From Candidatus Woesearchaeota archaeon (lineage in GTDB: Archaea > Nanobdellota > Nanobdellia > Pacearchaeales > GW2011-AR1), in assembly GCA_964573625.1 (NCBI GenBank), contig CAZNJU010000001.1, forward strand, positions 256,661-320,660: a stretch of 64,000 nucleotides of DNA, written 5' to 3'. Both the position numbers and the translations under genes were made by a program. The notes beneath the pieces were generated by a model. That model had not been told where the DNA came from, did not search any database, and saw only the letters and a list, made by a program, of their open reading frames with translations. This document shows, piece by piece, positions 1 to 57,345 of the stretch (position 1 is the first letter of the stretch; every line of letters begins with the position of its first letter).

Positions 1-205
1 TATTAAATGTTGGCGCAAAGAAGTCATGCCTTGAAAAGCAATCCTCTACTTTATGACCTAAAATACCTGCCTCGATAAAACGAGACTCGTATGAATGAGA
101 AAAATACGCATTCACTCCGAGATAAATTCCCGCAAAAACAATAAGAAGTAGTGCAAAAAAAGGTCCGAACATGACTATTTCGCCTCCAATACCTCTTTTA
201 TGCAT
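1..205 (-). CDS. pilin-like protein, partial (class III signal peptide; C-terminus beyond window)
   Basis: Minus-strand ATG at 203-205 gives MHKRG|IGGEIVMFGPFFALLLIVFAGIYLGV, a basic residue and Gly followed by a hydrophobic helix. This is the archaeal prepilin (PibD/FlaK-type) signal pattern. The reading frame runs off the window start. Confidence 0.4.
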   Translation of the reverse strand, partial: MHKRGIGGEIVMFGPFFALLLIVFAGIYLGVNAYFSHSYESRFIEAGILGHKVEDCFSRHDFFAPTFN

Positions 206-617
206 GAGCGTTTCCTCTCGAATAAATAGTAAACTGAAACGTATTTCCTACAAGACGAGCATTCCGTATCTCAACATCATTAAAAAAAGGAAATCTGCTA
301 ACACTATTTGAGTCTAAACGTACTTCAACCAGTCGATTTACATTGTCAATCGTGATTATCTGCTCTGGCGCAACCTTATGCTTTGAAGCTATATCTATCG
401 CTCGAGAAACATCTAAAGTTACTTCGCTCGTTGAACCAAGTGCATCAACGGTCAATCCGATTTCTTTAGCATAAAAATCTTGCCATAGTAGCGTACCATC
501 CTGAAAAGCTACTATATACATGAAAAGTCCAAGAAAAAAGACTGCAAACAAAATAATGTAAATCAAGTTACTTGCTAGAATAGTGTCAGAGTCCCCTCGC
601 TTATTCATAATCCTCAC
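198..617 (-). CDS. pilin-like protein with class III (type IV prepilin) signal peptide
   Basis: N-terminus MNKRG|DSDTILASNLIYIILFAVFFLGLF. It lies in tandem with other KRG-motif genes next to the FlaI/FlaJ homologs. Confidence 0.5.
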   Translation of the reverse strand: MRIMNKRGDSDTILASNLIYIILFAVFFLGLFMYIVAFQDGTLLWQDFYAKEIGLTVDALGSTSEVTLDVSRAIDIASKHKVAPEQIITIDNVNRLVEVRLDSNSVSRFPFFNDVEIRNARLVGNTFQFTIYSRGNAHA

Positions 618-638
618 TACTCAAATAACCATATAAAG

Positions 639-1256
639 CTAACGAAAAGTCGTAGAAATAGGAACACTCGGTTCTGAATGATATGCTGCACAACTGCTAT
701 AATCAAATTTAGAGTCTCCAGAAGCAGATAAAGAAATGGAAGAAGACCCTCTTGCAATAGATATTTCAGATAATAAGGAAGTTAATGGAATACAACTTCG
801 ATAAAAAGTTACAGTAGTCAGTGCAGGAGGTGCACCAGTACCTGCCGCCCCCAAATTAACCATTGAATCAAACGGACGCGAGGAAACATTTACTTTCTTT
901 TCAGACACCCGTTTACAAATCCCGCTTTTCTGACATACAACCGTGGAAGCAGAGCCCGGACAAATACAAACGCATCCTTGATTATAACATCGATCTGGTC
1001 TAGTTGAGTCATCGGCAGACCATCCAGCAAGATACCAACCACTTATCCCTTGAATAGTAACATTTGCAGTTACTCCTTCAGGAACTACTTGAGCCTTGGA
1101 AATTATTGAGTCAAGAACGACCTTCGCCTTATCATTTTCTTGATTTGTATTAAGATCATACAACTTCGCGAAAGCATAAACGAAAACAACAATACCTATT
1201 ACTGCAATAACTATACCAAGAACATTGTTCGTAAAAAAATCACCTTTTTTTTCCAT
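639..1256 (-). CDS. Cys-rich pilin-like protein (class III signal peptide)
   Basis: The likely true start is the internal Met giving MEKKG|DFFTNNVLGIVIAVIGIVVFVYAF. The mature part is Cys-rich (CYNQGCVCICPG...CQKSGIC). The track's N-terminal extension overlaps the upstream gene. Confidence 0.45.
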   Translation of the reverse strand: MEKKGDFFTNNVLGIVIAVIGIVVFVYAFAKLYDLNTNQENDKAKVVLDSIISKAQVVPEGVTANVTIQGISGWYLAGWSADDSTRPDRCYNQGCVCICPGSASTVVCQKSGICKRVSEKKVNVSSRPFDSMVNLGAAGTGAPPALTTVTFYRSCIPLTSLLSEISIARGSSSISLSASGDSKFDYSSCAAYHSEPSVPISTTFR

Positions 1257-1258
1257 AG

Positions 1259-2314
1259 TTACGGAATGCTCTGTACCCCTCCGGCACAAAGTGTGTTAAT
1301 ATCTCGTACGTTATAAGGTAACGTCTGGATCAGTGAGCACCCATGTCTAAATCGATCATCATTGCTTATTGATTCTTTAAGCACCGACTCTGACGCGACC
1401 ACTCCGCGACATTGAACGGCTGCGGCATATTCTCCTGCAAAAGCATTTGAAATACTATATGCTGCGATTCCTGCCTCTGCAAGTCCTAAAACTAGACCTG
1501 TCTTCAATCCCCCAGGAGCCTTAAGTTCAGTACCAAAAATACCATATGCCCAATTGGTCGCAACATCCTGCCATGCCTTAGGTTTATTCTGTGCAAACAC
1601 GATCGCCAGTTGATTACCTGAAGATATACCTTCAAGTCCCGTCTGAGAAACAGATATCTTCTTAGGATCATTTCCGCTCAAGTAAGAGTTAACTTGTTCA
1701 ACACTTGGATAACTATTAAATTGCATATCTGTAAATGCATCAAGATAACTAATGCGATAATCTGGCGGAAGCTTCTGTTGCTTCAAGTATTCTCCAAGGT
1801 TAACCTTTTCAGGAAGTTTCGCGGCTACCACATCATTTCCAAGAGCAACTCGTGTACATATGACGCATGTTGCCTTTCCAAGATCCGACTCGCTCAACCC
1901 AAAAGATTTCCAAGCAGAACCATATAGATCTAATTTACCAGTTCCCATCATCTTCCAACAATCATACATATTGTTAGCGAGCGTTTGCTCAATAGTGTTT
2001 CGCATCTGAGATTCATCTCCAGAAAGACGTATATTCTCTACATTACTCTCTCCAATAAACTGAGGACATTCGTTCTGCTTTCCAGACAAACTTATACAAA
2101 TTTTACTCGTTCGACACTTCAAAGGTAACGACGCCTGAGAAATATCGGGGGCGGTTGCCCTTGTTAAAACAGAAACGCGACATAGTTCGCTATCAGAAAC
2201 ATTCTGATTATTGAAAATAGTGTACAAAAAAACAAGCAAAATAATAAAGCCAACAAGAGCAAGTATCAAAACAGTAAGTTGTGTTGAAGTTATTTCCCCT
2301 CTTTTTGTCGTCAT
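1259..2314 (-). CDS. pilin-like protein (class III signal peptide), 351 aa
   Basis: N-terminus MTTKRG|EITSTQLTVLILALVGFIILLVF. It is part of the tandem pilin array. Confidence 0.5.
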   Translation of the reverse strand: MTTKRGEITSTQLTVLILALVGFIILLVFLYTIFNNQNVSDSELCRVSVLTRATAPDISQASLPLKCRTSKICISLSGKQNECPQFIGESNVENIRLSGDESQMRNTIEQTLANNMYDCWKMMGTGKLDLYGSAWKSFGLSESDLGKATCVICTRVALGNDVVAAKLPEKVNLGEYLKQQKLPPDYRISYLDAFTDMQFNSYPSVEQVNSYLSGNDPKKISVSQTGLEGISSGNQLAIVFAQNKPKAWQDVATNWAYGIFGTELKAPGGLKTGLVLGLAEAGIAAYSISNAFAGEYAAAVQCRGVVASESVLKESISNDDRFRHGCSLIQTLPYNVRDINTLCAGGVQSIP

Positions 2315-2482
2315 CTAAATCATAGAGTAAAGAGGTTTATAACGATTACGTAAACCTCTTATAAACAAGATAAATAGCAGAAAGTGCTGCAATAATGAAA
2401 AATATCCAAAGTATCCAGCCAGTTACTGAATCACCTACTTGTGCTTTTTTCATAATAAAAAATAGAAAACTATCTATTAAAC

Positions 2483-4096
2483 TTATGTATTTCGTAACGG
2501 AATATCGTTAAGCTTCTTGCCATTAAGAACATATAACTCTCCAAGGACATCCCATGTAAACGGCTCTTCAGGAGGTTCACTAATCAAATTATTTCGGAGT
2601 ATAATTCCGTTCTCAACTGTTCCCGCTGAACGAGTAGTGATAGTACCTGAAGTAGTCTCGAAGACAAGAAAATATTTAGAACCTTCAAAACTTGACATTC
2701 GTTTAACGTAAAGACCAGTATATATTCCAGAATAATACAAGCGAGTTATATCCGTATTCACGACCTCACGTGAAAAAAGAGAAAAATCCTTTTTAAGAAG
2801 CGCTTCTCTTTCCTGTGCCGCATTTTCATACATTCTAAAATCATTTCCAAGTTCATAGTACTTTGTCATAATCCCATCCACAAATAAATCCGTGTTCATG
2901 ATTTGACCGTTAGCATCGAGAGCCCCACTCTGTTGAAGAGTTTGTATAGAAATAATATTTGGTTTACCTTTGAATTCAAAAGTTATACTATCGAGCACTG
3001 GTTTTTTACCCCAGTAGCCTGTACCCAGTATTCCTGCGTATTTGCCATCTAATTTACGAGTCGCAAGCATCAAGCCATCATAGAAGTGATTTGTTTCTGA
3101 GCCTTGAAATATGTAGAAGTCTGATGCATGATCGCCAGTATATGTCCATTCATCTTTACCGGCATTCCAAGAATAAACATGTGGAGCACCATTAATTGAA
3201 AAATGAATAGATACGTCGCTCGCATCGCTAAAACGTATAGGATATGGATCAACCTGTTTCACACACGAAACAAATTTTTCTTCAGTTCCTTGTACAGGCA
3301 TGTTAAAGTCAATGTAAATATAGTTCTTTAGCTGTTTGACACGATATGCTTCCTGCATAGGAGACTTATCTTTAGTAAATGAAACTGAAACAAATTTTTC
3401 ACATTGGCCATTCTCAAGTAATTGGTCTCTCCACGAAGACAACTTAGAAATATATGGAGTATAACGTTTCAACTCGTCACTTGTAGCTTTTTCAATTCTG
3501 AAAGGTGCTGAATGTAAGACATAAAGCTCATCATTTGAGTTTACAAAAATTCTTGTTTTATACGTGCCAAGCTCATTAGAAGCCAGTTCATCAAGTGCAT
3601 AAACATAGGTACCCTTATCTGCAAAAGCCGCATTTCCCAGACCTTCAATGGAAACAGGTGTTCCCTGCGAATGATAGAACAGAGATGTCTTGCCTGCTAG
3701 AGGTACAGCGTGAAGAATTCTCCAAGGTTCAGGCAGTTCAAAGAAGTTTGCACTTTTTCTATCAGTATTAAAATAGAAATCAATAAGCTGCTCTCGTAAA
3801 GAAGAAGGTATATCATACGAACCTATAGAAGCAACGTTATTAGTTGTCTTAAGAGGTATCCAGGCGTTTCCGCTGAAATAAACTAAGCGTAAGTCATTAG
3901 AAAGATCTATCCCAACTGAAACAACATTCTCAGTCAAAGGATTAGCGCTAGAGTTATATCCAGGTATAAAATTATTAAAAAAGCTCCCTATCGATCCAAA
4001 TTTATCAGTGCTTGCAACAACGATAGCAACAAGAAGAACTGCTGCAATAATCAAAGTAATTATCACACCGCTCGAAAGTTCACCTTTACGGTTCAT
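2483..4096 (-). CDS. large pilin-like / pilus-associated protein (class III signal peptide), 537 aa
   Basis: N-terminus MNRKG|ELSSGVIITLIIAAVLLVAIVV followed by a large beta-rich extracellular domain. Confidence 0.5.
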   Translation of the reverse strand: MNRKGELSSGVIITLIIAAVLLVAIVVASTDKFGSIGSFFNNFIPGYNSSANPLTENVVSVGIDLSNDLRLVYFSGNAWIPLKTTNNVASIGSYDIPSSLREQLIDFYFNTDRKSANFFELPEPWRILHAVPLAGKTSLFYHSQGTPVSIEGLGNAAFADKGTYVYALDELASNELGTYKTRIFVNSNDELYVLHSAPFRIEKATSDELKRYTPYISKLSSWRDQLLENGQCEKFVSVSFTKDKSPMQEAYRVKQLKNYIYIDFNMPVQGTEEKFVSCVKQVDPYPIRFSDASDVSIHFSINGAPHVYSWNAGKDEWTYTGDHASDFYIFQGSETNHFYDGLMLATRKLDGKYAGILGTGYWGKKPVLDSITFEFKGKPNIISIQTLQQSGALDANGQIMNTDLFVDGIMTKYYELGNDFRMYENAAQEREALLKKDFSLFSREVVNTDITRLYYSGIYTGLYVKRMSSFEGSKYFLVFETTSGTITTRSAGTVENGIILRNNLISEPPEEPFTWDVLGELYVLNGKKLNDIPLRNT

Positions 4097-4248
4097 CGGA
4101 ACCTCATAAGATCTTTGAGATAGCTAATGAGTCCAGTCCCCTTCCCGCTTAATCCAACATAAATGAGTACAACAAGCACAAGAACAATAAGCGCAATAAT
4201 CCAGGGGATAAGAGTGTCCCAGACAATAAACCCTTTTTTCTTCATAGA
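4093..4248 (-). CDS. small pilin-like protein (51 aa) using internal Met of the 73-aa ORF
   Basis: An internal start gives MKKKG|FIVWDTLIPWIIALIVLVLVVLIYV, a class III-like signal. It overlaps the stop of the downstream pilin gene by 4 nt, which suggests the two are co-transcribed. Confidence 0.3.
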   Translation of the reverse strand, partial: SMKKKGFIVWDTLIPWIIALIVLVLVVLIYVGLSGKGTGLISYLKDLMRFR

Positions 4249-4329
4249 AATAAAGAGAAAAATGTTATTATAAATGTGCCGCATAGTGAACTTTATAACG
4301 TCTTTAGCCCTCACGTTTAAATAAAAAAG

Positions 4330-6480
4330 ATGGGTTCCACAGACGAGATTCTTGCAAAGTATAGTCAGAAAATTGAGTCAGAGATGTCCAACGATGAAGA
4401 AAGTTACTCACGAGAATACCTCTCATTCAAAGAAGATATGCTTCCTGAGCTTTCACGCTATCAACGTCTCGTAAATACGCTAAATTTCGTTAAAGTTCAT
4501 GCATCTCAAAAAGACGAAGCCCGTTTACAAAAATACTTGGACGTTGCACACCTTGCAGTAACCCCCTCTCAAGCAATAACCTTTGCAGCGCTCTCATTTA
4601 TTGCTTCATTACTATTAGTTGTTGCAATAACGGCATCACTTTTCTTCATTCAAGGAAAGGTTCAACTAATGTTTTTGTTTCTAGGAGTAATAGTTTCTCT
4701 TTTTGTTTTTTATTACACTTATTCATATCCTAAACGTCTGGCTAATGCGTGGAGATTGAAGGCATCTTCACAAATGGTTCCAGCAGTTTTATACGTCGTA
4801 GTATATATGAAACACACATCTAACCTTGAAAAAGCAATAGAGTTTGCAGCACAACATCTTGAAATACCTCTAGCTCTGGATTTTCGAAAAATATTCTGGG
4901 ATGTTGAAGTTGGTCGATTCTCAACACTTAAACAGTCACTCGACGTCTATCTTGAAAGTTGGAGAGATTATGCTCCAGAATTTGTTGAATCATTTCATCT
5001 TATAGAGTCAAGTCTCTACGAACCTTCCGAATCTAGACGTGTTCAAACATTAGAGAAAGCGCTACAAATTATTCTTGATGGAGTATATGAGAAAATGTTG
5101 AAATATTCTAGAGAAATTCGATCACCTCTTACGAACATATACATGTTAGGAATTATCCTTCCAACATTAGGGCTTGCACTTCTCCCGCTTCTATCAACAT
5201 TAATGGGTGGCGTTGTACAGTGGCAGCATATTTTCCTTCTTTTCAATGTGATTGTCCCATTTATGGTCTTTTATATGACTTCAGAAGTTCTACTTAAAAG
5301 ACCTGGAGGATATGGTGAAAGTTCAGTATTAGAAAAAAACCCAGATTACCCTAAGTTTATATCGAGAAAGCCCTGGGTTACAGCTTTTCTTATCTGCTTT
5401 CCACTTTTAATAATTGGACTCTTGCCATTTGTATTCCAAATGTCTTGGATGAATACGCTAGGATTCAAAAGCGATTATACTTTCCAAGAGCTTCATGTCC
5501 CTTTTCTGAGTGATTCAGGAATGAAAATATTTGATTTCAAACAAGTCAATGGTGCGACATCGGGACCATTCGGAGCCGGTGCTGCACTCCTAAGCCTTTG
5601 TGTGCCTCTCTCAATAGGATTATTCTTTTCGCTCGTATATAAGAAGAAGACAAAAGAACTCATTAAATCGAGAGAGAAGACAAAAGAACTTGAAAGAGAA
5701 TTCAATAATTCACTTTTCCAACTAGGTAATCGTCTCGGAGACGGTATGCCGGCTGAAATAGCTCTTATAAGAGTTGCAGCAGCAACACAGGGTCAAAAGA
5801 CTCAATCTTTCTTTGCCATAGCAAATGAAAATATACAACAATTAGGTATGTCAGTCGAGCAAGCAATTTTTAATCCTAAACGTGGAGCAATAATTTACTT
5901 CCCCTCCGCGCTAATTGCAACAAGCATGCGCATTCTAGTCGAATCCGTAAAGAAAGGATTAGAAGTTGCTGCCCGTTCTCTTATGTCTATATCAGAATAC
6001 GTAAAAAACATTCAAAAAATAGATGATCGTTTAAGAGATTTGCTTGCAGAGGTAGTTTCAGATATGAAATCAAACATGACTTTCCTTGCTCCCCTTCTTG
6101 CAGGAATTGTTGTTGGTCTATCTGCAATGATAACTATGATACTTAACACGCTTCAATTAACAAGTGAGCTCGGTGGGCAACAAGCGCTGGGAGGTTTTGC
6201 ATCTATTTCAAGCATCACTGCTCTCTTTGATGTAAGAACCATGATTCCCCCATACTTTATTCAGATTTCAATAGGGCTCTATATAGTTGAAATAATATTC
6301 ATTCTCACAGCCGCACTGGTTACAGTTGATGCCGGTAAAGATCCTCTAAGAGAGAAATATGAACTAGCGAGAAATCTTAAGCGTGGACTTGTTCTTTATA
6401 TTTCAACTGCCTTGCTTTCGATCGTGGCACTTACGTTGCTTGCAGCAATTGTTCTTCCAGGAATAGGTACTCCTGCTTAA
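4330..6480 (+). CDS. type IV pilus/archaellum assembly platform membrane protein (FlaJ/TadC/PilC family)
   Basis: A 716-aa polytopic membrane protein with two cytoplasmic helical domains separated by TM clusters. It sits immediately beside the FlaI-like ATPase and the pilin array. Confidence 0.5.
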   Translation: MGSTDEILAKYSQKIESEMSNDEESYSREYLSFKEDMLPELSRYQRLVNTLNFVKVHASQKDEARLQKYLDVAHLAVTPSQAITFAALSFIASLLLVVAITASLFFIQGKVQLMFLFLGVIVSLFVFYYTYSYPKRLANAWRLKASSQMVPAVLYVVVYMKHTSNLEKAIEFAAQHLEIPLALDFRKIFWDVEVGRFSTLKQSLDVYLESWRDYAPEFVESFHLIESSLYEPSESRRVQTLEKALQIILDGVYEKMLKYSREIRSPLTNIYMLGIILPTLGLALLPLLSTLMGGVVQWQHIFLLFNVIVPFMVFYMTSEVLLKRPGGYGESSVLEKNPDYPKFISRKPWVTAFLICFPLLIIGLLPFVFQMSWMNTLGFKSDYTFQELHVPFLSDSGMKIFDFKQVNGATSGPFGAGAALLSLCVPLSIGLFFSLVYKKKTKELIKSREKTKELEREFNNSLFQLGNRLGDGMPAEIALIRVAAATQGQKTQSFFAIANENIQQLGMSVEQAIFNPKRGAIIYFPSALIATSMRILVESVKKGLEVAARSLMSISEYVKNIQKIDDRLRDLLAEVVSDMKSNMTFLAPLLAGIVVGLSAMITMILNTLQLTSELGGQQALGGFASISSITALFDVRTMIPPYFIQISIGLYIVEIIFILTAALVTVDAGKDPLREKYELARNLKRGLVLYISTALLSIVALTLLAAIVLPGIGTPA

Positions 6481-8751
6481 TTAAGAGTTAACTTGTCCAA
6501 TGAGCCAGCGTTTCCATTCCATAAAAACAACATCGCTAATAGGTAATCCAAGTTCACGCGTGACCTTATCGCTTATCATATGGAAAGAATCATTAGATCT
6601 TTTTACAAATGAAGCTTCTAATAACGATGGCTTGTTCAATCGTTTAGCAGTTGCAACAAGTTCCTGATGAATTTGTCCACGTAAAATGATATTGTCCATT
6701 ATCGCATCCCAGTTCCCAGCCCATCCTTTAACACTACCAGCAATTGATTTGATGACTTCGCAATCTCCATTGAGCAGTTCATCAGTAGGTTCAAGTTCAT
6801 CTTTTTCAACATTATATCTCATCAAGTCAACAAATCCTTTCTCTTCAAGAGGATCTTTTGTCCAGTGTTTTCTAACTTCTGCAATCTGAACAACTCTTTT
6901 GATAGAGTGAAGCCCATCAGGGGTTTTAATAGGGTTAGCCACAATAACGATATCCGTTGCCTTGAAACTTGTTACAGGTACGCCTAAGTCATTAACAAGT
7001 CTGTCGAAGACCCCATAAGGCGAAGCTCCGTGGATCGTACCCGCGACGACGTTTGCTAGAGCCCCTACTCGCATTGCTTCATACAATGCTTTAGCCTCTG
7101 AGCTTCGCACCTCTCCAACAATTAACGCAGAATCTCCCAAGCGCAAGCTCGCACGTATACCCTCGGAAGCTTCGATCTCGGTTGTTGCTTCGACAAGAGC
7201 ACTTCGAACTTTCATACGCTGGATATTATATTCTAATTTTCTTAGAGAATCAACTGGAAGTTCAAGAGTATCCTCTATAACAAGAATACGGTATTTCGGC
7301 ATTATCTCAAGCATAAGGCTTCCCAAGAGAGAAGTTTTTCCTGAGCTACGTGTTCCAGCTACGAGCAAAGTGCGTGAGCCATCGATAAGGAAACTGAGTA
7401 ACCCTGCGGCAAAGGGATTGATCATTTTATTGTTAACAAATAAAGGGAGTGTCCAAGGATCATCACGTGGACGACGTATGGCATATGCAATTCCCTGTGG
7501 AGAGAGCGGGCGCTGTATTGCTGCAACTCTTGCGCGTACCTTTCCATAAAAAAGATCAGTATCTAGAATAGGATTTGCTTCATCAAGAGGTCTGCCCGAT
7601 TGTAATCGAAGTTTTGCAGCCCAAGATTCTGCATCCTCGTAACTAGGAATTACATTTGTAACACACTCTCCGTATGTTTGATGTCTAACAAAAATAGGGT
7701 TTTGTGCGAGAGGAGCATTTAGAAAAATATCTTGTAATTGTGAATCAAGAAGAAGAACTTCTATGAGTCCAAAGCCAATGGTTTGCCTAACCAAAATACG
7801 AGCAAGACGATTAAGTTCCTTATAAGCGAGTGGAATCCCTTTGCTTTGAGAGAGTTCAGTAAGTAAATCCCTCGCAACTGTAAAAAAAACAGCTCTTGTG
7901 CGTTCAGCGTCGCTAAACTCTTCAGCTTTTGGCTGATGTTCAATAAGGACACTTCTTCCCAAGTTGAGAAGCATATGATGCTCCTCGCTTAAAGCATATT
8001 CCGGAGGCATAATATGATAAACATACGTCGACGCGTCTTTTCGTTTAAGAATTGTAACTATTATTGCCTCTTCCTCGGAGTCAATTTCATACTGATCAAC
8101 AAGTTCTGCATGTTCAGGTAGTTGTGCAACAAGTCTTGTAAAAGTAAAATTAGGTAAAATATCTGGTCTGAAAATAGACTTATAGATGGACCTATCGCCA
8201 TAAGTAGTTGTATCGATAATATCACTAATCGACTTGATAAGGCGTGTCTGCTCAACAAGAGCACGAGTGCGTTCAAGAAAACGAACATATGCTATTGAAA
8301 ATCTAGAATCATTTTGAGTGAGGGAAATTAATCTCTTAAGTTCTATAAGTGCTGAAACCGGATCCTGTCTAAGAAGATTAACAAAAGTGCTCAATTGACT
8401 ATAAACTAAGCCTGAGTCTCCATAAAAAGCGAGTTTCTCTGGGGAAAGTATGCGCTCTTGTTTAACGAGATAAATATAGAGTTGTGCAAACTCAATAAGG
8501 AGAGAAAGCTGATCAAAAGAATAATGATAATTTCGTTGTTGCACAAGAATGAGTCTGGAAACTCCTGCATGATCCATAAGAGAATCTACAACTCTGGCCA
8601 TAACCTCTTGAAAATCAGCAAGAGAAGGCGTAAAGGGCGCTCCTAGATAATTAACATATAAGATAGTCTCTCCCTCTTTACGCTCAACCTCTGTACTATA
8701 CAGAGGAGAGTTTTGCTTAAATATCATTGAACATTCGTGCCAAAACGGCAT
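6481..8751 (-). CDS. type II/IV secretion-system ATPase (FlaI/VirB11/GspE family)
   Basis: Walker A VAGTRSSGKTSLLGSL, Walker B/Asp box YRILVIEDTLELP and a His-box-like GTIHGASPYGVFDRL. The gene is tail-to-tail with the platform gene and shares a ttaattaa stop. Confidence 0.8.
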   Translation of the reverse strand: MPFWHECSMIFKQNSPLYSTEVERKEGETILYVNYLGAPFTPSLADFQEVMARVVDSLMDHAGVSRLILVQQRNYHYSFDQLSLLIEFAQLYIYLVKQERILSPEKLAFYGDSGLVYSQLSTFVNLLRQDPVSALIELKRLISLTQNDSRFSIAYVRFLERTRALVEQTRLIKSISDIIDTTTYGDRSIYKSIFRPDILPNFTFTRLVAQLPEHAELVDQYEIDSEEEAIIVTILKRKDASTYVYHIMPPEYALSEEHHMLLNLGRSVLIEHQPKAEEFSDAERTRAVFFTVARDLLTELSQSKGIPLAYKELNRLARILVRQTIGFGLIEVLLLDSQLQDIFLNAPLAQNPIFVRHQTYGECVTNVIPSYEDAESWAAKLRLQSGRPLDEANPILDTDLFYGKVRARVAAIQRPLSPQGIAYAIRRPRDDPWTLPLFVNNKMINPFAAGLLSFLIDGSRTLLVAGTRSSGKTSLLGSLMLEIMPKYRILVIEDTLELPVDSLRKLEYNIQRMKVRSALVEATTEIEASEGIRASLRLGDSALIVGEVRSSEAKALYEAMRVGALANVVAGTIHGASPYGVFDRLVNDLGVPVTSFKATDIVIVANPIKTPDGLHSIKRVVQIAEVRKHWTKDPLEEKGFVDLMRYNVEKDELEPTDELLNGDCEVIKSIAGSVKGWAGNWDAIMDNIILRGQIHQELVATAKRLNKPSLLEASFVKRSNDSFHMISDKVTRELGLPISDVVFMEWKRWLIGQVNS

Positions 8752-8801: not shown

Positions 8802-9116
8802 GTGTTAATGCCTGAAGATTACAATGCTCAACAATACGCCACAGATGCCGCAACACGTCTTCGTGACCTCGAAGAAAAACAACGTCTCCTAAAAGAGAGA
8901 ATTTTACTTATTGGTCAGAATATCGTTTCGGAACGAGAATCTCTTTTTCAAGATTTACAAATGATAAAGAAGACATTATTCGAGCTAAAAGAAGAACAAC
9001 TTAAAATGAAAGAATTTGTTCAGAGATTATCCGAGTCAGTAACTGAGTTGGCACGAAAAGAGGAGGTTCTGACAATTCAACGCCAACTGGACATCCTAAA
9101 ACCCCACATACGATGA
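8802..9116 (+). CDS. coiled-coil protein
   Basis: 104 aa with heptad-rich sequence (LRDLEEKQRLLKERILLIGQ...). Its stop overlaps the start of the next ORF. Confidence 0.35.
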   Translation: MLMPEDYNAQQYATDAATRLRDLEEKQRLLKERILLIGQNIVSERESLFQDLQMIKKTLFELKEEQLKMKEFVQRLSESVTELARKEEVLTIQRQLDILKPHIR

Positions 9117-9883
9117 GTGTTCTTGAAGAGGTGAGGCAACTAAAAGATCAAGGAATGACTGACGATCAGATAGTTCAGATGATGCGAGATAAGGGAGTCC
9201 AGTATAGAGACATTTCTGAAGCGCTTGCGCAAACACAGATTAAGGCTGCGGTAGAACAAAAAGACGAGCCACAGGTAGCCTATCAAGCAGGACAGCAAGT
9301 GCAAGATGAAAACATGCTACAACCCTCTCTTTTGGCTGATGCTCAAGTGCCGCAAGGAACACAGGCTCAATACGCTCAACAAGGACAGCAATATCAGCCC
9401 CAATACTATCCAGGTCAAGACCAACAAATGCCTCAAGCACAGAATTACCAATATCAGCCCCAGCAGCAACAAGAACAGCAATATGCTCCGACAGATGCTG
9501 GGCAACAAGACTATAACCAATATAGTTACCCGCAGAGTACAGAAATGATTTCAGAGATAGCTGAACAAATCGTAGCAGAAAAGATGTCAGATCTTAGAAA
9601 AAATATTGAGAAAGTGATTGACTTTAGAACTTCTGCTGAATCAAAAATACAATTCATTGACGAGCGTCTTAAAAGGCTTGAGAAAGTGATTGACACGCTC
9701 CAGAGCTCCGTTCTAAGAAAAGTAGGAGACTATGTAACTAACGTAGAAGACATTAAACGAGAGATTGTAGAAACTCAGAAGACGTTCTCAAAACTCGTAC
9801 CGGGAAGACATCATCCACAGCAAACACATCAGCATCCACATAATCAGCATAATCAACCCAAACACCACCCTCATAAAAAATAA
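9113..9883 (+). CDS. Gln-rich low-complexity protein with coiled-coil segment and His-rich C-terminal tail
   Basis: The central part is Q/Y/P-rich (QQGQQYQPQYYPGQDQQMPQAQNYQYQPQQQQEQQ). The C-terminus reads HHPQQTHQHPHNQHNQPKHHPHKK. Confidence 0.4.
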   Translation: MSVLEEVRQLKDQGMTDDQIVQMMRDKGVQYRDISEALAQTQIKAAVEQKDEPQVAYQAGQQVQDENMLQPSLLADAQVPQGTQAQYAQQGQQYQPQYYPGQDQQMPQAQNYQYQPQQQQEQQYAPTDAGQQDYNQYSYPQSTEMISEIAEQIVAEKMSDLRKNIEKVIDFRTSAESKIQFIDERLKRLEKVIDTLQSSVLRKVGDYVTNVEDIKREIVETQKTFSKLVPGRHHPQQTHQHPHNQHNQPKHHPHKK

Positions 9884-9885: not shown

Positions 9886-10386
9886 TTATTTCTTAACAAG
9901 AAGCCAGCTAATAACTGCGGTCACCACTATCAATATAATCGCACCCACAACAGGGCCAGAATAGAGCCAGTCAGTAAATAAATTGCCTTCATATCCTACA
10001 CCTGGAAGGTAAGGATAAATTACGTCTGAAAAGACTACAATCGCTGAGATGAAAAAGATAAGTACGAGCATGATAACTGCCGCAACCCCTATATTTTCCT
10101 GAAACTTATTAGGCACTTTTCCAGCAAATGAAACAATAAGTAACATAAAGAAAAGAGATATGAACAAAACAGCAAACCATGGCGTCACAACCTCAACATA
10201 TCTTCGAGCTCCCGCCGCGGAAATGAATAGCGTCGCAATAACAAAAGAGACAAAAATTATCATCCATTTATTATCTCCTAGTACTTTAGTCTTTAACAGA
10301 ACAAGAGAGATAACAAGGAATACCAGAAAGAAAGCAATAATTGGAGCAAAATAGGAAAAATAAGTCACAGAAACTTCAGCAACCAT
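9886..10386 (-). CDS. small polytopic membrane protein, paralog family (1 of 3 in tandem)
   Basis: Four or five predicted TM helices. It shares the N-terminal FLLVFxVIxxxLxKTxxLG pattern with the two following genes. Confidence 0.45.
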   Translation of the reverse strand: MVAEVSVTYFSYFAPIIAFFLVFLVISLVLLKTKVLGDNKWMIIFVSFVIATLFISAAGARRYVEVVTPWFAVLFISLFFMLLIVSFAGKVPNKFQENIGVAAVIMLVLIFFISAIVVFSDVIYPYLPGVGYEGNLFTDWLYSGPVVGAIILIVVTAVISWLLVKK

Positions 10387-10388
10387 AA

Positions 10389-10967
10389 TTAATCTTCCGG
10401 CCTAACAGCAAGGAATTGAGTACCATGCTCTGCACGTCGTTTAGCCTTCTCATCAGCACTGTCTGGTTTGAGTAAAAGTGGTGCAATAATCAGCACAAGA
10501 ATTACCACAAAAATAATAGTTGTCCAGTTGTCCTGCCACCAAGAGGAGCCAAACCAGTCGAATTGATTCAAAGTTACAACTGCAATGATAATCGCGACTC
10601 CCAAACCGCCCCACATAAGAGTGTTACTAAAATTAGAAAAATTACCCTTTGTAATGAACAAGCCCATAAGAATTACTACCATGACTACAATAGCAATACC
10701 TATTCCAAAGTTAGGAAATACTGTTGTGAAAAACTGACTAACAATAGGTGCTCGAATAGCCAACAAAGCAATAGCTACTGAGATAATCACATTGATCCCT
10801 CGATTCCCACCCAAGACACGTGTAGAACTCAAAATACCAAAAACTACTGCAAAAATAAGCAAAGCAGGAAGGAAAAAATCAAAGATGCCTGCGTTCTCCC
10901 ATTGAAAATAAAGCTGTTGCAAGGATAACGTCTCTAAAAAGACAGAATGTAGCAGAGTACTTATCAT
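10389..10967 (-). CDS. small polytopic membrane protein, paralog family (2 of 3)
   Basis: Similar topology and N-terminal motif (LLIFAVVFGILSSTRVLGGNRG). Confidence 0.45.
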   Translation of the reverse strand: MISTLLHSVFLETLSLQQLYFQWENAGIFDFFLPALLIFAVVFGILSSTRVLGGNRGINVIISVAIALLAIRAPIVSQFFTTVFPNFGIGIAIVVMVVILMGLFITKGNFSNFSNTLMWGGLGVAIIIAVVTLNQFDWFGSSWWQDNWTTIIFVVILVLIIAPLLLKPDSADEKAKRRAEHGTQFLAVRPED

Positions 10968-11011
10968 AAGTTAAAATACAATAAACCCATTTAAATATGT
11001 TTCTCTAAGTT

Positions 11012-11518
11012 TTACTTTTTCTCAGCCGGTTTATCTGAGCCACTACTCATGGCAACATACAAAACCACAACAACAAGACCTACAAAAATGATATTTGTAA
11101 CAAGGGTACTATTATCACTTGAACTATACCACCAATCATAAATATAGCTCCAAGTTCCGGTAGCTACCAGTAAAGTTAAGACAACACCAAGTGCTGCCAA
11201 CACACCAATGGCAATCATAACTCGTGAATGCATTTTAAAGGATCCTGCTCCAAAAGACATCCCATATAGAATCATAAACACTAAGATAGCTACGACTGAG
11301 ATAGCCAGGAAGGGAATCAATGAAGTTATGATATTAGTAGCGTAACCAAAAGAAACAACAAGCAGTCCAATAACGAGCGCGACAATAGCATCTATTTGCT
11401 TTTTACCTTTCCCAAGAATCTCAGTCTTCTGAAGAATTGCAAAGATAACTACAAACACTAGCAAGAAAGGTAAGATAACCTCAGTAAACAGAGGGCTTGA
11501 AAGAATAGTCTGTACCAT
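11012..11518 (-). CDS. small polytopic membrane protein, paralog family (3 of 3)
   Basis: N-terminal motif FLLVFVVIFAILQKTEILGKGKK, with the same length and topology as the neighbours. Confidence 0.45.
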   Translation of the reverse strand: MVQTILSSPLFTEVILPFLLVFVVIFAILQKTEILGKGKKQIDAIVALVIGLLVVSFGYATNIITSLIPFLAISVVAILVFMILYGMSFGAGSFKMHSRVMIAIGVLAALGVVLTLLVATGTWSYIYDWWYSSSDNSTLVTNIIFVGLVVVVLYVAMSSGSDKPAEKK

Positions 11519-11561: not shown

Positions 11562-11879
11562 TCAGTTAGAGGACAAATCAGCAGTATCAGAACCTGCAGG
11601 AACATCAATAGACGCTTCCTCTCGAACAGGCAAAGAAGCCTTATTGACAATGAATATGTCTCCAATAGATTTTACGAACTGGTGTGGAATAATAACTCCT
11701 CGAGCACCACCAAGAACACTCATGAAACCTCCACCAACGCGAATCTTCCATCCATCAATCTTATTGTCAACAAGGTTAACCTCTTCAATCTGACCAAAGT
11801 AATCGCCATCAGAGGTATAAACGTGCTTGCTCACCATTCCAGTCAATTTTTGAATACGTAACATGGCAAGAAAGTGCAT
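11562..11879 (-). CDS. PRC-barrel domain protein
   Basis: Reads VYTSDGDYFGQIEEVNLVDNKIDGWKIRVGGGFMSVLG, typical of PRC-barrel proteins. The start codon is uncertain. Confidence 0.45.
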   Translation of the reverse strand: MHFLAMLRIQKLTGMVSKHVYTSDGDYFGQIEEVNLVDNKIDGWKIRVGGGFMSVLGGARGVIIPHQFVKSIGDIFIVNKASLPVREEASIDVPAGSDTADLSSN

Positions 11880-11978: not shown

Positions 11979-12623
11979 ATGAAAAAGCAAGAAATAATTT
12001 CGATTCTAGCAGCCGTTCTAGTATTTAGTATAGTATTGAGCTTTAGACAAATCGTGTTAGGAAACATCCTTTATGTCGGAACAGTGATTATTTTTTCAGT
12101 TATTGTAATATTCATAAACATTGGCGCGAAAAAATTGGCTGCCCGTTCTCTAGATTCAGACGTAGAGCACGATTTTTGGTATTGGCAAAGATACGGCCTA
12201 AAACCAGGAGACTACATGAAGAAGAAAATACCAGCAGGAGTTGCACTTCCTCTTATCCTTACCGCGATTTCATTAGGGTTCCTAAAGTGTATGACTTTTC
12301 TTACATATGAAACAACTGCTTTAAGACGCAGAGCGGTGAGAAGATTTGGATTTTACAGTTTTACAGAAATGACTGATTGGCACAACGCACTTATTGGTGC
12401 AGGCGGAATCATTGCCCTTCTGGCTCTCTCATTCATAACGTATTGGTCTCCATTTGTATTACTAGAAGGTCTCTGGAAGGTTAGTGCCTTTTACGCATTC
12501 TGGAATATGCTTCCTGTTTCAAGATTCGATGGAGCCCAGATTTTCTTCGGCTCTCGTGTTCTCTGGACAGCTCTTGCCCTTATAACTGCAGTATTTACTG
12601 CATATGCACTTATTCTAGTATAG
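11979..12623 (+). CDS. polytopic membrane protein, function unknown
   Basis: Six hydrophobic segments and no recognisable catalytic motif. Confidence 0.35.
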   Translation: MKKQEIISILAAVLVFSIVLSFRQIVLGNILYVGTVIIFSVIVIFINIGAKKLAARSLDSDVEHDFWYWQRYGLKPGDYMKKKIPAGVALPLILTAISLGFLKCMTFLTYETTALRRRAVRRFGFYSFTEMTDWHNALIGAGGIIALLALSFITYWSPFVLLEGLWKVSAFYAFWNMLPVSRFDGAQIFFGSRVLWTALALITAVFTAYALILV

Positions 12624-42595: not shown

Positions 42596-43693
42596 ATGCA
42601 TTTCAAATGGCCGCTTTTGGGCTTCGTAGGGCTCACACTCTTCAGTTTTACCCTTCTTGCAATCATTCATACGGATACTTCTACCACTCTAAGCCCCGGA
42701 GATAATCAACTCGAAGCGTGTAAAACTCTTACGTATCATGGAGAACACAAGATAAACCTTGTTTTCTTCGGAGATGGAAAGACAGTTAAGAAATATATGG
42801 ATTATTTTTTTTCGGTAAAGCCGTTTACAACCAGGCAAGAAGACTTCAATGTCTATTACATCGATGATTACAAGCCAACCTGTACGAGGTATAGAGGCAT
42901 TGCATTGCTGTGTTACAATAAAGAAGTCATTGAAAAAGCAGGTTCTTGTCCTTCTGCCGATGCAATTCTAGTACTCTCTTCAGACAAGGAAAGTATTCGC
43001 AGTTCAGCATATCTGGGTGTTGGATCACTTAATACAAATCACCCTTATTCCGTTTTTGCACATGAATTCGGACACCTCTTCGGCAATTTTGCAGAAGAAT
43101 ATAGAACAGAAACACTTCCGGCAAATCAACAAAACTGCAAAGCGAGTCAATCAGATTTCACGTCACCTGTAGATGGAATATATCAAGAATGCTCAAAACA
43201 ATCCTATTATCGCTCCATAGAGAGCGGATTTATGCGTTCTCTCGAAGCAACACAGTACGGGCAGTACAACGAACATCTTCTCGAAGCACAAATAGATAAC
43301 CATTACTCTCCATTAAAAGCAACCGGGTTCGCATCACAGGAACAAGAGAATTGTGCCGCAGAATCGTACTATCTTGCAGAGGCAAAGTACGACGGCACAT
43401 TAACACCGATTGATACGTATATTACAAATGGTTGCGCTCAAAATCAGCAAGCAGGATCATTCTCATATACTGGATCAGATGGCCGAGAAGTTTCAACATT
43501 TGAACCAATTTTATTTACAGATGGTCCAGGCAAAGAGACGATCGATGGCGAAGATTTCAAAGACCCTGATCTACCAGTTTACATCCCCCTTCCGCTTTCA
43601 ACACCTCCACAACTTAGTTTTCATGATGATGAAGGAAATTTTATTGGACAAATGGCATTGAGTGATGCAGGAGCACGGTTATGCAAAATATGA
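42596..43693 (+). CDS. secreted zinc metalloprotease (HEXXH...E gluzincin-like)
   Basis: Signal peptide MHFKWPLLGFVGLTLFSFTLLAI, active-site motif VFAHEFGHLFGNFAEEY and several Cys. Confidence 0.55.
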   Translation: MHFKWPLLGFVGLTLFSFTLLAIIHTDTSTTLSPGDNQLEACKTLTYHGEHKINLVFFGDGKTVKKYMDYFFSVKPFTTRQEDFNVYYIDDYKPTCTRYRGIALLCYNKEVIEKAGSCPSADAILVLSSDKESIRSSAYLGVGSLNTNHPYSVFAHEFGHLFGNFAEEYRTETLPANQQNCKASQSDFTSPVDGIYQECSKQSYYRSIESGFMRSLEATQYGQYNEHLLEAQIDNHYSPLKATGFASQEQENCAAESYYLAEAKYDGTLTPIDTYITNGCAQNQQAGSFSYTGSDGREVSTFEPILFTDGPGKETIDGEDFKDPDLPVYIPLPLSTPPQLSFHDDEGNFIGQMALSDAGARLCKI

Positions 43694-57305: not shown

Positions 57306-57345
57306 TACCGCGCAGTTTACTCTTCGAGCATAATTCACAGATTAT

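What the first reader, a model, noticed from the sequence alone, without database searches (positions are those of the whole stretch)
1..8751. Type IV pilus-like locus with six tandem class III-signal-peptide genes of very different sizes, including a Cys-rich one
Six consecutive minus-strand genes all begin with a basic residue, Gly and a hydrophobic helix (KRG/KKG|…), as expected for PibD-processed prepilins. Their mature domains range from about 30 aa to over 500 aa, and one is Cys-rich. The locus sits beside a 716-aa FlaJ/TadC-like platform and a long (756 aa) FlaI-like ATPase. These last two are tail-to-tail and share a ttaattaa stop. No prepilin peptidase is encoded in the window. The large pilin-like proteins could be tip adhesins of the kind DPANN-type episymbionts use for host attachment.
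Basis: partly seen in the sequence, partly recalled or inferred. Interest (0 to 1): 0.6.

Follow-up and report, generated by a model that had tools for sequence, protein, structure and literature searches.

The report
Type IV pilus-like operon, DPANN archaeon
This is one end of a large, strongly conserved type IV pilus-like gene cluster in a tiny, probably host-dependent DPANN archaeon; standard annotation misses most of it, which matters because a groundwater study has stated that such pilus systems are missing from DPANN genomes.

Summary
The window carries seven tandem minus-strand genes with class III-like N-termini (the seventh is cut at base 1). An identical contig extends the series to at least ten. 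In 23 related Pacearchaeota/Woesearchaeota-labelled genomes the same ordered series ends in an A24 prepilin peptidase, so the "missing" peptidase most likely lies just beyond the left edge.

The 756-aa protein is a competent TadA/FlaI/GspE-type ATPase. The 716-aa membrane protein has no direct Pfam, NCBIfam or PDB sequence hit. It is nevertheless a divergent two-domain T2SSF platform, shown by family members that hit T2SSF, fold matches to PilC/EpsF/OutF and an internal repeat.

Across 323 relatives the N-termini read N-K-[KR]-G|[E/Q/D], followed by about 20 hydrophobic residues. Among ORFs of at least 100 aa, 61% inside the cluster carry this motif against 5% elsewhere.

No pilin-like protein matches a known family. 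The 351-aa protein has ten invariant cysteines and no detectable fold relative. The 537-aa protein evolves fastest.

Best reading: a lineage-specific type IV filament machine, probably for adhesion. Host attachment is inferred, not shown. It is a new variant of a known kind and of moderate interest.

The parts
1..205 (-). Seventh pilin-like gene, truncated by the window edge (MHKRG|IGGEIVMFGPFFALLLIVFAG...; 148 aa, 4 Cys, in full)
   Evidence: Read directly. Full length on the identical contig L081. Ortholog group present in 31 relatives.
198..608 (-). 136-aa pilin-like gene (MNKRG|DSDTILASNLIYIILFAVFFLGLF...), no Cys
   Evidence: strict class III-like rule met. Orthologs in 20 relatives at the same operon position. 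No Pfam or NCBIfam hit.
639..1256 (-). 205-aa Cys-rich pilin-like gene (MEKKG|DFFTNNVLGIVIAVIGIVVF...), 8 Cys including the CxxxxCxCxC cluster
   Evidence: In 27 homologs C90, C95, C97 and C108 are invariant and C99 and C114 nearly so. The profile finds only weak, non-significant N-terminal hits to geopilin and archaellin.
1259..2314 (-). 351-aa pilin-like gene (MTTKRG|EITSTQLTVLILALVGFIILLVF...). It has a conserved extracellular domain with 10 invariant Cys and an Ala/Gly-rich hydrophobic loop (about 255-300).
   Evidence: 53 homologs. Alignment A3 shows G at -1 conserved >=90% and 10 invariant Cys. AF2 model: pLDDT 76.9, pTM 0.76, N-terminal helix 10-36 plus an alpha/beta domain, residues 262-294 below pLDDT 50. 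No fold match in PDB or BFVD. No PDB profile hit.
2346..2453 (-). 35-aa gene (MKKA|QVGDSVTGWILWIFFIIAALSAIYLVYKRFT); the mature product would be essentially one hydrophobic helix
   Evidence: Small ORFs with the same features sit at the same position in many relatives. Not called by the Logan gene caller.
2483..4096 (-). 537-aa pilin-like gene (MNRKG|ELSSGVIITLIIAAVLLVAIVVAS...), the fastest-evolving and most length-variable position of the operon
   Evidence: Only itself was found in the 5.8-billion-protein search. It is 22-28% identical to the position-2 genes of 7 relatives (230-772 aa). It is 43% identical in a relative whose platform is 87% identical. No Pfam or PDB hit.
4093..4245 (-). 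50-aa first gene of the pilin operon (MKKKG|FIVWDTLIPWIIALIVLVLVVLIYVGLSGKG...), a helix-only, Flp/EpdE-like candidate subunit. Its stop overlaps the 537-aa gene's start by 4 nt.
   Evidence: Homologs of 47-65 aa in 38 relatives, at the first position in 34 of them, median 46% identity.
4246..4329 (.). 84-bp AT-rich divergent intergenic region between the pilin operon and the platform gene (presumed promoters)
   Evidence: Sequence read. Promoter function is inferred and was not tested.
4330..6480 (+). 716-aa polytopic platform protein, a divergent two-domain T2SSF (GspF/PilC/TadBC/FlaJ) family member
   Evidence: No direct Pfam, NCBIfam or PDB hit. 19 of 40 full-length family members hit Pfam T2SSF, best 3.2e-10. 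The best PDB hit of the family profile is the EpsF cytoplasmic domain, E 0.08. The AF2 model (pLDDT 71) matches OutF, PilC and EpsF cytoplasmic domains at probability 0.97-1.00, TM 0.62-0.69. The N- and C-halves align, P 7e-4. About 9 hydrophobic segments.
6481..8751 (-). 756-aa (or 748-aa from M9 at 8727) secretion ATPase of the TadA/FlaI/GspE2 type, with about 215 extra N-terminal residues
   Evidence: Pfam T2SSE 1.8e-14. PDB: afGspE 1.5e-28, CpaF 9e-23, FlaI 1.3e-16. NCBIfam: TadA 5.9e-38, FlaI 3.4e-36, all below equivalog cut-offs. Walker A GTRSSGKT (466), Asp box IEDTLE (492), Walker B GEVR (546), His box TIH (572). 61-74% identical in 80 relatives.

Best explanation
The window holds the proximal two-thirds of a lineage-specific type IV filament (T4P-like) assembly cluster of a Pacearchaeota/Woesearchaeota-type DPANN archaeon.

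Proposed mechanism, marked as shown or inferred:
1. Shown: the cluster encodes a catalytically intact TadA/FlaI-type ATPase and a two-domain T2SSF platform. It also encodes at least 10 tandem proteins whose N-termini follow M-N-K-[KR]-G|[E/Q/D]-x5-(about 20 hydrophobic residues). In relatives a dedicated FlaK/PibD-like A24 aspartic peptidase is the last gene.
2. Inferred from the established T4P pathway: the precursors insert N-in/C-out. The peptidase removes the 4-10-residue leader after the conserved Gly/Ala. The ATPase-platform motor then extracts the subunits from the membrane and stacks their hydrophobic N-terminal helices into a surface filament.
3. Inferred: one short or N-terminally highly conserved subunit forms the shaft. 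Candidates are the 50-aa first gene, the tenth gene with its conserved QEG(L/V)TLTTL(L/I)LIV helix, or the unlinked canonical pilin at 43681-44127.
4. Inferred: the conserved-order, disulfide-rich globular subunits (136, 148, 205 and 351 aa, and others) act as a minor-pilin initiation or tip complex.
5. Inferred: the hypervariable second gene (537 aa here, 180-772 aa in relatives) is the specificity or adhesin subunit.
6. Inferred: the most probable role is adhesion to a surface or a host cell.
For: - ATPase family and motifs.
- Platform is T2SSF by transitive Pfam hits (19/40 members), by local fold matches only to PilC, EpsF and OutF cytoplasmic domains at probability 0.97-1.00, and by an internal repeat in the T2SSF register.
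- Position-specific N-terminal conservation in 323 proteins: -4 N 46%, -3 K/R 84%, -1 G 79% / A 17%, +1 E/Q/D 46%. The -4, -3 and +1 positions were not imposed by the search rule.
- G at -1 is >=90% conserved in the 351-aa family, which was collected independently of the rule.
- Motif enrichment inside the cluster: 61% against 5%, p = 7e-84.
- Each protein has exactly one strong hydrophobic segment, at its N-terminus.
- Tight operon packing with 4- and 8-nt overlaps.
- An A24 peptidase sits 150-300 bp after the last pilin-like gene on the same strand in 23 relatives. It has invariant QD and FAGGD motifs.
- Gene order is conserved over 80 genomes.
- Rate gradient in close relatives: ATPase/platform 87-88%, 351 aa 70%, 136 aa 62%, 205 aa 50%, 537 aa 43-60%.
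- Even Cys counts fit extracellular disulfides.
- Size-fractionation data suggest Pacearchaeota are unusually strongly host-attached (He et al., 10.1101/2020.05.14.094862).
Against: - No pilin-like protein hits any Pfam, NCBIfam or PDB pilin or archaellin family.
- A profile of their N-termini finds only generic transmembrane helices in the PDB.
- A different protein in the same window does match the archaeal pilin N-terminal model.
- Cleavage, assembly and expression are all untested.
- The peptidase was not seen in the source genome itself.
- The 35-aa product has basic residues at both ends and could be a membrane-resident accessory protein rather than a filament subunit.
- Nothing in the data identifies a host or shows adhesion.
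- Which subunit forms the shaft is unresolved.
Confidence: 0.72

Rival explanations
1. The cluster builds a short pseudopilus or bindosome-like envelope assembly rather than a long pilus. The same ATPase, platform and peptidase would assemble a stub. That stub would either display the globular, disulfide-rich subunits in the cell envelope or push proteins out, as in a type II secretion system or the Sulfolobus bindosome.
For: At least seven of the ten subunits carry sizeable globular domains, and the ten occur in fixed order like the T2SS GspG-K or ComG sets. No unambiguous abundant major pilin is identifiable. The ATPase also matches BasE, at 8.7e-15.
Against: The BasE score (54 bits) is far below those for TadA and FlaI (125-131 bits). 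None of the subunits hits a substrate-binding-protein family. Helix-only short subunits, as in Flp/Epd pili, are present.
Confidence: 0.17
2. The cluster is a DNA-uptake (competence-type) filament used by a nucleotide-auxotrophic symbiont to scavenge extracellular DNA.
For: Groundwater surveys report type IV pilin-like genes and competence genes together in ultra-small prokaryotes (PMC9938205). The multi-minor-pilin architecture resembles ComG operons (my knowledge of the ComG system, not tested here).
Against: No ComEC/DprA-like gene or DNA-binding domain was detected in the window genes I scanned. This covers only part of the genome. No subunit shows a known DNA-receptor pilin fold.
Confidence: 0.07
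3. The N-termini are ordinary signal anchors or Sec signal peptides, and the genes merely happen to lie next to an ATPase-platform pair.
For: The N-terminal profile matches generic transmembrane helices only. Single sequences contain possible signal peptidase I sites after the helix, such as VAS|T in the 537-aa protein and AFA|K in the 205-aa protein (read).
Against: The N-K-[KR]-G motif lies at a fixed short distance from Met, with 79% Gly at -1 and acidic or Gln residues at +1. G at -1 is >=90% conserved in an independently collected family. The putative signal peptidase I sites are not conserved. An in-operon A24 peptidase is present in relatives. The motif is 29-fold enriched inside the cluster.
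Confidence: 0.03
4. The cluster is an archaellum (a motility apparatus).
For: The ATPase matches the NCBIfam FlaI model at 3.4e-36, and the peptidase matches the FlaK model weakly.
Against: Both scores are far below the equivalog cut-offs (125 against 550, and 37-41 against 330). No archaellin domain was found, and no Pfam or NCBIfam family matched any protein scanned in or beside the cluster. No FlaF, FlaG, FlaH or FlaX/CDE model was searched for specifically.
Confidence: 0.01

Closest known systems
Epd pilus of Methanococcus maripaludis (archaeal TFF 'system 1' of Makarova et al. 2016 and Sivabalasarma & Albers 2026)
   Same: A large single cluster of about 11 genes with one ATPase, several different pilin-like genes and a dedicated prepilin peptidase. 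It includes a short pilin lacking a globular domain. Some substrates have Gln at +1. System 1 is reported in some DPANN.
   Different: System 1 has two separate platform genes; here there is one 716-aa two-domain protein. Only 17% of substrates have Gln at +1. I saw no hit to curated class III or pilin N-terminal models. The peptidase resembles FlaK weakly; no EppA model was available to compare. The pilin globular domains match nothing known.
Bacterial Tad/Flp pilus (TadA/CpaF, TadB-TadC, TadV, Flp, TadE/F)
   Same: The best-scoring NCBIfam model for the ATPase is the TadA family, and CpaF is the second-best PDB relative. JGI annotators name platform homologs 'TadB'. It has helix-only short subunits plus larger pseudopilins. 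The peptidase is not fused to a methyltransferase domain (from my knowledge of TadV; not tested here).
   Different: The organism is an archaeon, and the platform is a single fused protein. There is no Flp-family hit among the Pfam results. The ATPase carries about 215 extra N-terminal residues and scores far below the TadA cut-off (131 against 373 bits).
Archaeal adhesion pili and archaellum (Aap, Ups, PilA systems; FlaI/FlaJ/FlaK)
   Same: The same core triad of ATPase, polytopic platform and A24 peptidase, with class III-type leaders cleaved after Gly/Ala preceded by Lys/Arg (PMC4371748).
   Different: None of the in-locus subunits matches the archaellin/pilin N-terminal model TIGR02537, which the unlinked 148-aa protein at 43681-44127 does match. 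No hit to archaellum accessory families was seen. There are ten subunit genes instead of one to three.
Modular or minor type IV pilins and tip adhesins (S. sanguinis PilB, PMC8179133; PilY1-like adhesins of subsystem 4A)
   Same: A pilin-type N-terminus is joined to a large extra domain, and the gene sits inside the pilus operon (abstract).
   Different: No sequence or fold similarity to any of them was detected. The adhesin role here is inference only.
Type IV pili of CPR/Saccharibacteria episymbionts
   Same: A functional analogy: ultra-small, host-dependent cells with conserved T4P, shown experimentally to drive host binding (PMC9894109 and PMC11623550, abstracts).
   Different: Those are bacterial T4aP machinery (PilB/C/T, PilA). 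The resemblance here is one of lifestyle logic, not family membership.

Membership tests
Type IV filament (T4P/TFF) superfamily | Secretion ATPase of the T2SSE/VirB11 family with Walker A, Asp box, Walker B and His box | tested here: met
   Pfam T2SSE 53.6 bits against a cut-off of 24.9. PDB relatives afGspE, CpaF and FlaI. All four motifs found.
Type IV filament (T4P/TFF) superfamily | Polytopic platform protein with T2SSF (GspF/PilC/TadB-C/FlaJ) domains | tested here: met
   Direct Pfam, NCBIfam and PDB searches were negative. The feature is met indirectly. 19/40 full-length family members hit PF00482, best 3.2e-10. The only high-probability (0.97-1.00) fold matches are the PilC, EpsF and OutF cytoplasmic domains. 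The N- and C-halves align in the T2SSF register, P 7e-4.
Type IV filament (T4P/TFF) superfamily | Prepilin peptidase of family A24 with two catalytic Asp residues | tested here: inconclusive
   Absent from the window and from the 1.8-kb extension L081. Present as the last operon gene in 23 syntenic relatives (Pfam A24 1e-9 to 7e-14, invariant QD and FAGGD). The source genome beyond the window could not be fetched.
Type IV filament (T4P/TFF) superfamily | Subunits with a class III signal peptide: a short basic leader, Gly/Ala at -1, then a hydrophobic helix of about 20 residues | tested here: met
   Motif statistics. G at -1 is >=90% conserved in alignment A3. This is a sequence-pattern test only. 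FlaFind and PilFind themselves were not available, and my rule follows my recollection of the FlaFind pattern.
Type IV filament (T4P/TFF) superfamily | Actual cleavage by the peptidase and polymerisation into a filament | not testable with these tools
   This needs biochemistry, proteomics or imaging.
Archaellum | Archaellin subunits (archaellin/pilin N-terminal domain) plus FlaF/G/H and FlaX or FlaCDE | tested here: not met
   No archaellin or arch_flag_Nterm hit for any in-locus protein, and no Pfam or NCBIfam family matched any scanned neighbouring protein that would indicate an archaellum accessory. The FlaI model scores 125 bits against a cut-off of 550.
Epd pilus / archaeal TFF system 1 | Two separate platform genes (EpdJ and EpdK) | tested here: not met
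   A single 716-aa platform gene in the window and in 70 relatives.
Epd pilus / archaeal TFF system 1 | EppA-type peptidase with substrates that require Gln at +1 (QxSxE motif) | tested here: not met
   Gln at +1 in only 17% of 323 substrates; Glu 17%, Asp 12%. The peptidase's only NCBIfam hit is the FlaK model, and it is weak.
Bacterial Tad/Flp pilus | TadA-family ATPase at equivalog level and Flp-family pilin | tested here: not met
   The TadA model is the best NCBIfam hit but scores 130.9 bits against a cut-off of 373. No Flp-family hit for the 50-aa or 35-aa products.
Sulfolobus bindosome (Bas) | BasE/BasF machinery plus substrate-binding proteins carrying class III signals | tested here: not met
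   BasE scores 54 bits against a cut-off of 1000. No substrate-binding-protein family hit in any subunit.

The most novel reading that the evidence does not exclude
This cluster is the conserved host-contact organelle of Pacearchaeota-type DPANN archaea. The hypervariable second gene (537 aa here) would set host specificity. The invariant 10-Cys, 351-aa subunit would use its Ala/Gly-rich hydrophobic hairpin-like loop, which resembles viral fusion peptides in composition (37% Ala+Gly, Kyte-Doolittle about 1.6), to engage or insert into the host membrane. In that reading the pilus-like machine establishes the physical bridge to the host rather than merely sticking to it.
Probability: 0.12. Interest if true: 0.85.

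Novelty: new variant of a known kind. Interest (0 to 1): 0.5.

Why it matters
Pacearchaeota are among the most metabolically reduced archaea known. Size-fractionation data suggest they are unusually firmly host-attached, yet neither their hosts nor their attachment machinery are known.

[quoted passage not shown] This cluster shows that premise fails for this lineage. Relatives of the ATPase were found in 359 stretches of the species-representative genomes scanned. Where the flanks are long enough, the cluster forms a complete set of ATPase, platform, about 10 subunits and a peptidase.

It is easy to overlook. The platform and all subunits lack Pfam and NCBIfam hits, and the two smallest genes are not even called.

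The cluster also supplies concrete candidates for experiments:
- a hypervariable 180-772-aa subunit;
- an invariant disulfide-rich subunit whose fold has no detectable relative.

These could be used in host-range prediction, binding assays, antibody or cryo-ET labelling, and metaproteomic searches for mature N-termini.

Tried and rejected
I ran no further search on a single-sequence prediction. The second job went to the platform.
- Homolog search for the 537-aa protein: only itself was found. Homologs exist but are too diverged for the word index.
- Profiles of the 537-aa, 351-aa and 205-aa families and of 80 pilin-like N-termini against PDB sequences: nothing significant. The N-terminal profile finds generic transmembrane helices (PsbJ, ACE2 transmembrane helix, designed helices), with geopilin and archaellin only at E 0.1-0.7.
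- Fetching the 760-kb source contig to see the rest of the operon: the look-ups returned only short Logan contigs. An exact-match scan of JGI metagenomes with a 50-mer from the tenth gene found nothing.
- Assigning the ATPase to a Makarova clade or TFF subsystem: no reference sequences were available. Model scores (TadA about equal to FlaI, both well above BasE) do not decide it.
- Neighbouring conserved genes (two coiled-coil proteins, three small membrane paralogs, a PRC barrel, an M50-like protein): considered as possible accessories. They belong to a synteny block that also includes a Hef-like helicase, so linkage alone is not evidence.
- Archaellum, bindosome and Sec-signal readings were considered and rejected (see rival explanations).


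Full report
**Observation.**
On the minus strand, in transcription order:

| Gene | Coordinates | N-terminus |
|---|---|---|
| 50 aa | 4093-4245 | MKKKG\|FIVWDTLIPWIIALIVLVLVV |
| 537 aa | 2483-4096 | MNRKG\|ELSSGVIITLIIAAVLLVA |
| 35 aa | 2346-2453 | MKKA\|QVGDSVTGWILWIFFIIAAL |
| 351 aa | 1259-2314 | MTTKRG\|EITSTQLTVLILALVGF |
| 205 aa | 639-1256 | MEKKG\|DFFTNNVLGIVIAVIGIVVF |
| 136 aa | 198-608 | MNKRG\|DSDTILASNLIYIILFAV |

- Junctions are operon-like: 4- and 8-nt overlaps and gaps of 2-31 nt.
- The platform (4330-6480, +) and the ATPase (6481-8751, -) converge. Their stop codons abut inside ttaattaa.
- Each pilin-like protein has exactly one strong hydrophobic segment, at its N-terminus.
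- The window is archaeal: it has an intron-containing tRNA, PolD, and Cdc6/Orc1.

**The locus continues beyond the window.**
- A Logan contig identical to the left end of the window (L081) completes the seventh gene at 148 aa.
- It adds three more genes with the same kind of N-terminus: 224 aa (MKRG|QIDQILTSVIVLFVV), 155 aa (MLNRKG|HIATWLILVGTLVL) and >=75 aa (..GKRG|QEGVTLTTLILIVIGVIV).
- I could not obtain the 760-kb source contig.

**Relatives.**
- A scan of one genome per GTDB species with the ATPase found 359 stretches that encode a relative. The best 80 are 61-74% identical over the full length. All are labelled Pacearchaeota, Woesearchaeota, Nanoarchaeota or 'archaeon', except two records that are probably mis-binned.
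- In these loci the genes after the platform follow the same order as in the window:
  1. a protein of about 50 aa;
  2. a large variable protein (180-772 aa);
  3. a protein of about 36 aa;
  4. the 351-aa family;
  5. the Cys-rich 205-aa family;
  6. the 136-aa family;
  7. the 148-aa family;
  8. three further pilin-like proteins.
- In 25 loci the flank reaches a protein of about 275 aa. Four that I scanned hit Pfam Peptidase_A24 at 1e-9 to 7e-14, and two hit the NCBIfam FlaK model weakly.
- In 23 of those loci this peptidase gene is on the same strand, 150-300 bp after the last pilin-like gene. QD and FAGGD are at least 90% conserved across the 18 aligned full-length copies.
- The window itself has no relative of this peptidase. 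It is best explained by the window cutting the operon.

**Are the N-termini class III signals?**
- FlaFind was not available. I used a rule that follows my recollection of its pattern ([KR][GA][ALIFQMVED][ILMVTAS] plus a hydrophobic stretch) and a relaxed version ([KR][GAS] plus a hydrophobic stretch).
- In the window the strict rule hits five of the six complete genes, and the relaxed rule hits the sixth. The truncated seventh runs off the window and was not scanned. Outside the locus the strict rule hits four ORFs. One, at 43681-44127, is a canonical pilin; two look spurious.
- I aligned 323 proteins from the relatives at the predicted cleavage site:

| Position | Residues |
|---|---|
| -4 | Asn 46% |
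| -3 | Lys/Arg 84% |
| -1 | Gly 79%, Ala 17% |
| +1 | Glu 17%, Gln 17%, Asp 12% |
| +7 to +25 | hydrophobic |

- The -4, -3 and +1 preferences, and the dominance of Gly over Ala and Ser, were not imposed by the rule.
- In the 351-aa family, collected by sequence search independently of the rule, Gly at -1 is conserved in at least 90% of 49 sequences and the following E/D-[LIV]-[ST]-S-x-Q is well conserved.
- Among ORFs of at least 100 aa, 236/387 inside the cluster carry the motif against 28/556 elsewhere in the same loci (odds ratio 29, p = 7e-84).
- The evidence has limits:
  - No in-locus protein matches a curated pilin or archaellin N-terminal model.
  - A profile of 80 N-termini retrieves only generic membrane helices from the PDB.
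  - The call therefore rests on motif, context and the in-operon peptidase, not on homology to known pilins.

**ATPase.**
- Pfam T2SSE at 1.8e-14.
- Best solved relatives are A. fulgidus GspE (1.5e-28), CpaF (9e-23) and FlaI (1.3e-16), with VirB11 and PilT far behind.
- Best NCBIfam models are TadA (131 bits) and FlaI (125 bits), both far below the equivalog cut-offs.
- Walker A, Asp box, Walker B and His box are all intact.
- Similarity to afGspE starts at residue 216, so about 215 N-terminal residues are extra and unannotated. Homologs start at residue 9, so 8727 may be the real start.

**Platform.**
- The 716-aa protein has no Pfam, NCBIfam or PDB sequence hit, alone or as a 26-sequence profile. 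Some JGI records call its homologs 'TadB'.
- A profile search of 1.84 billion representatives found 1160 family members.
- Of 40 full-length members that are 22-42% identical to the window protein, 19 hit Pfam T2SSF (best 3.2e-10).
- The best PDB hit of that broader profile is the EpsF cytoplasmic domain (E 0.08), aligned on the conserved LFQLGNRL..G.P.E.A motif.
- An AF2 model (pLDDT 71) has global Foldseek E-values no better than 0.17. The only high-probability matches (0.97-1.00, TM 0.62-0.69, rmsd 3.1-3.7 A over 108-124 alignment columns) are the cytoplasmic domains of OutF, PilC and EpsF.
- The N- and C-halves align with each other in that same register (P 7e-4).
- About nine hydrophobic segments are predicted.
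- I conclude it is a divergent two-domain T2SSF platform.
- In 34 of 70 relatives the gene is co-directional with the ATPase and the pilin genes. In 36, as in this window, it is inverted.

**The subunits.**
- *351-aa family:* It has ten invariant cysteines. The AF2 model is reasonably confident (pLDDT 76.9, pTM 0.76): an N-terminal helix (10-36) followed by an alpha/beta domain. It has no Foldseek match in the PDB or BFVD (best E 0.27-0.6) and no profile hit. Residues 262-294 are below pLDDT 50. Across the family this stretch is 37% Ala+Gly and moderately hydrophobic (median Kyte-Doolittle 1.64).
- *205-aa family:* It keeps a C-x4-C-x-C-x-C cluster and two further cysteines.
- *Tenth family:* It has the best-conserved N-terminal helix and four conserved cysteines.
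- *50-aa and 35-aa products:* They would be little more than one helix after cleavage, as in Flp- and EpdE-type pilins. The Logan gene caller did not call either one.
- *537-aa protein:* It had no hit except itself among 5.8 billion proteins. It is 22-28% identical to the position-2 genes of seven relatives.
- *Rate comparison:* In one relative whose platform and ATPase are 87-88% identical, the 537-aa ortholog is 43% identical. In another close relative the 351-aa, 136-aa and 205-aa orthologs are 70%, 62% and 50% identical.
- The second position is thus the most plastic in length and sequence. This fits a specificity or adhesin role but does not prove one.

**Mechanism.**
From the established type IV pilus pathway, I infer the following:
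1. Sec-dependent insertion of the precursors.
2. Removal of the short basic leader by the A24 peptidase.
3. ATPase- and platform-driven polymerisation through the N-terminal helices.

Which protein forms the shaft is open. Candidates are the 50-aa first gene, the tenth gene (it is flanked by the largest intergenic spacers in relatives), and the unlinked 148-aa protein at 43681-44127. That last protein is the only one in the window to match the archaeal pilin N-terminal model TIGR02537. Unlinked major pilins are known in M. maripaludis and H. volcanii (PMC4371748).

**Comparison with known systems.**
- The closest known systems are the M. maripaludis Epd cluster (system 1) and the bacterial Tad/Flp pilus.
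- Shared features:
  - a many-gene cluster;
  - a dedicated peptidase;
  - helix-only short subunits;
  - an ATPase of TadA/FlaI type.
- Defining features of system 1 are not met. System 1 has two platform genes, and its substrates depend on Gln at +1.
- Equivalog-level membership of TadA, FlaI and BasE fails.
- The archaellum is excluded for lack of archaellins and of any hit to accessory families.
- Neither Makarova et al. 2016 (no mention of DPANN lineages apart from a single figure-legend mention of Nanoarchaeota) nor the 2026 MacSyFinder survey describes this Pacearchaeota-type cluster. I could not check their supplementary tables.
- He et al. state that type IV pilus components are 'missing in DPANN genomes' and report Pacearchaeota as strongly host-attached. 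Other MAG studies do note FlaIJK-type genes in other DPANN.

**Verdict.**
- It is a new, lineage-specific variant of a known kind of machine. Its platform and subunits are unusually divergent and mostly invisible to annotation.
- Host attachment remains a reasonable but untested inference.

Noticed in passing
window 43681-44127 (+), with 42596-43693 (+): A 148-aa protein (MQNMSRRG|MSTVVSTVLVIAISVILAVIIG...) is the only one in the window that matches the curated archaellin/type IV pilin N-terminal model (TIGR02537, 24 bits, cut-off 20). Its start overlaps by 13 nt the end of a 365-aa protein with weak zinc-metalloprotease hits (M64/reprolysin-like). It could be an unlinked major subunit assembled by the locus studied here.
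   Followed up: partly
window 8802-9116 (+) and 9113-9883 (+): Two coiled-coil proteins (104 aa, and 256 aa with a Gln/Pro-rich middle) lie divergently next to the ATPase start. They keep that position in 73 of the 74 relatives where a homolog was found. They have no Pfam hit. Whether they belong to the pilus system or merely to a conserved synteny block is unknown.
   Followed up: partly
window 9886-11518 (-), 11562-11879 (-), 11979-12623 (+): Three paralogous small polytopic membrane proteins (166, 192 and 168 aa), a PRC-barrel protein and an M50-like membrane protein are syntenic with the locus in most relatives. The M50-like protein keeps the C-terminal NxxPxxxxDG-like motif but has no obvious HExxH (seen by reading the sequence).
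   Followed up: partly
window 4330-6480 compared with loci L001-L080: The platform gene is inverted relative to the ATPase and pilin genes in 36 relatives (as in this window) and co-directional in 34. A single-gene inversion therefore separates two sub-lineages.
   Followed up: partly
window 4093-4245 and 2346-2453; locus L082: The 50-aa and 35-aa genes were not called by the gene caller on the identical Logan contig, although both are conserved by position and features across relatives. Such mini-subunits are probably missing from many MAG annotations.
   Followed up: partly
window 57218-57314 (+): Rfam detects a tRNA of 97 nt (60.6 bits) that ARAGORN does not report. It is presumably intron-containing, as is common in archaea. 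It lies next to tRNA-Leu, tRNA-Arg and a 5S rRNA gene (55953-56067).
   Followed up: no
window 8727-8751: The ATPase ORF begins at 8751, but nearly all homologs align from its residue 9 (MIFKQNSPLY). The start codon in use may therefore be the ATG at 8727, giving 748 aa.
   Followed up: partly
loci L027 and L051: Two records that carry this archaeal cluster are labelled as bacteria ('Candidatus Paceibacterota bacterium', 'Bacillota bacterium'). They are most likely binning or labelling errors in public MAGs.
   Followed up: no
locus L055, about 10132-11065: In one relative the A24 peptidase gene directly follows the platform with no pilin-like genes between them. The pilin block can therefore be relocated or lost.
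   Followed up: no
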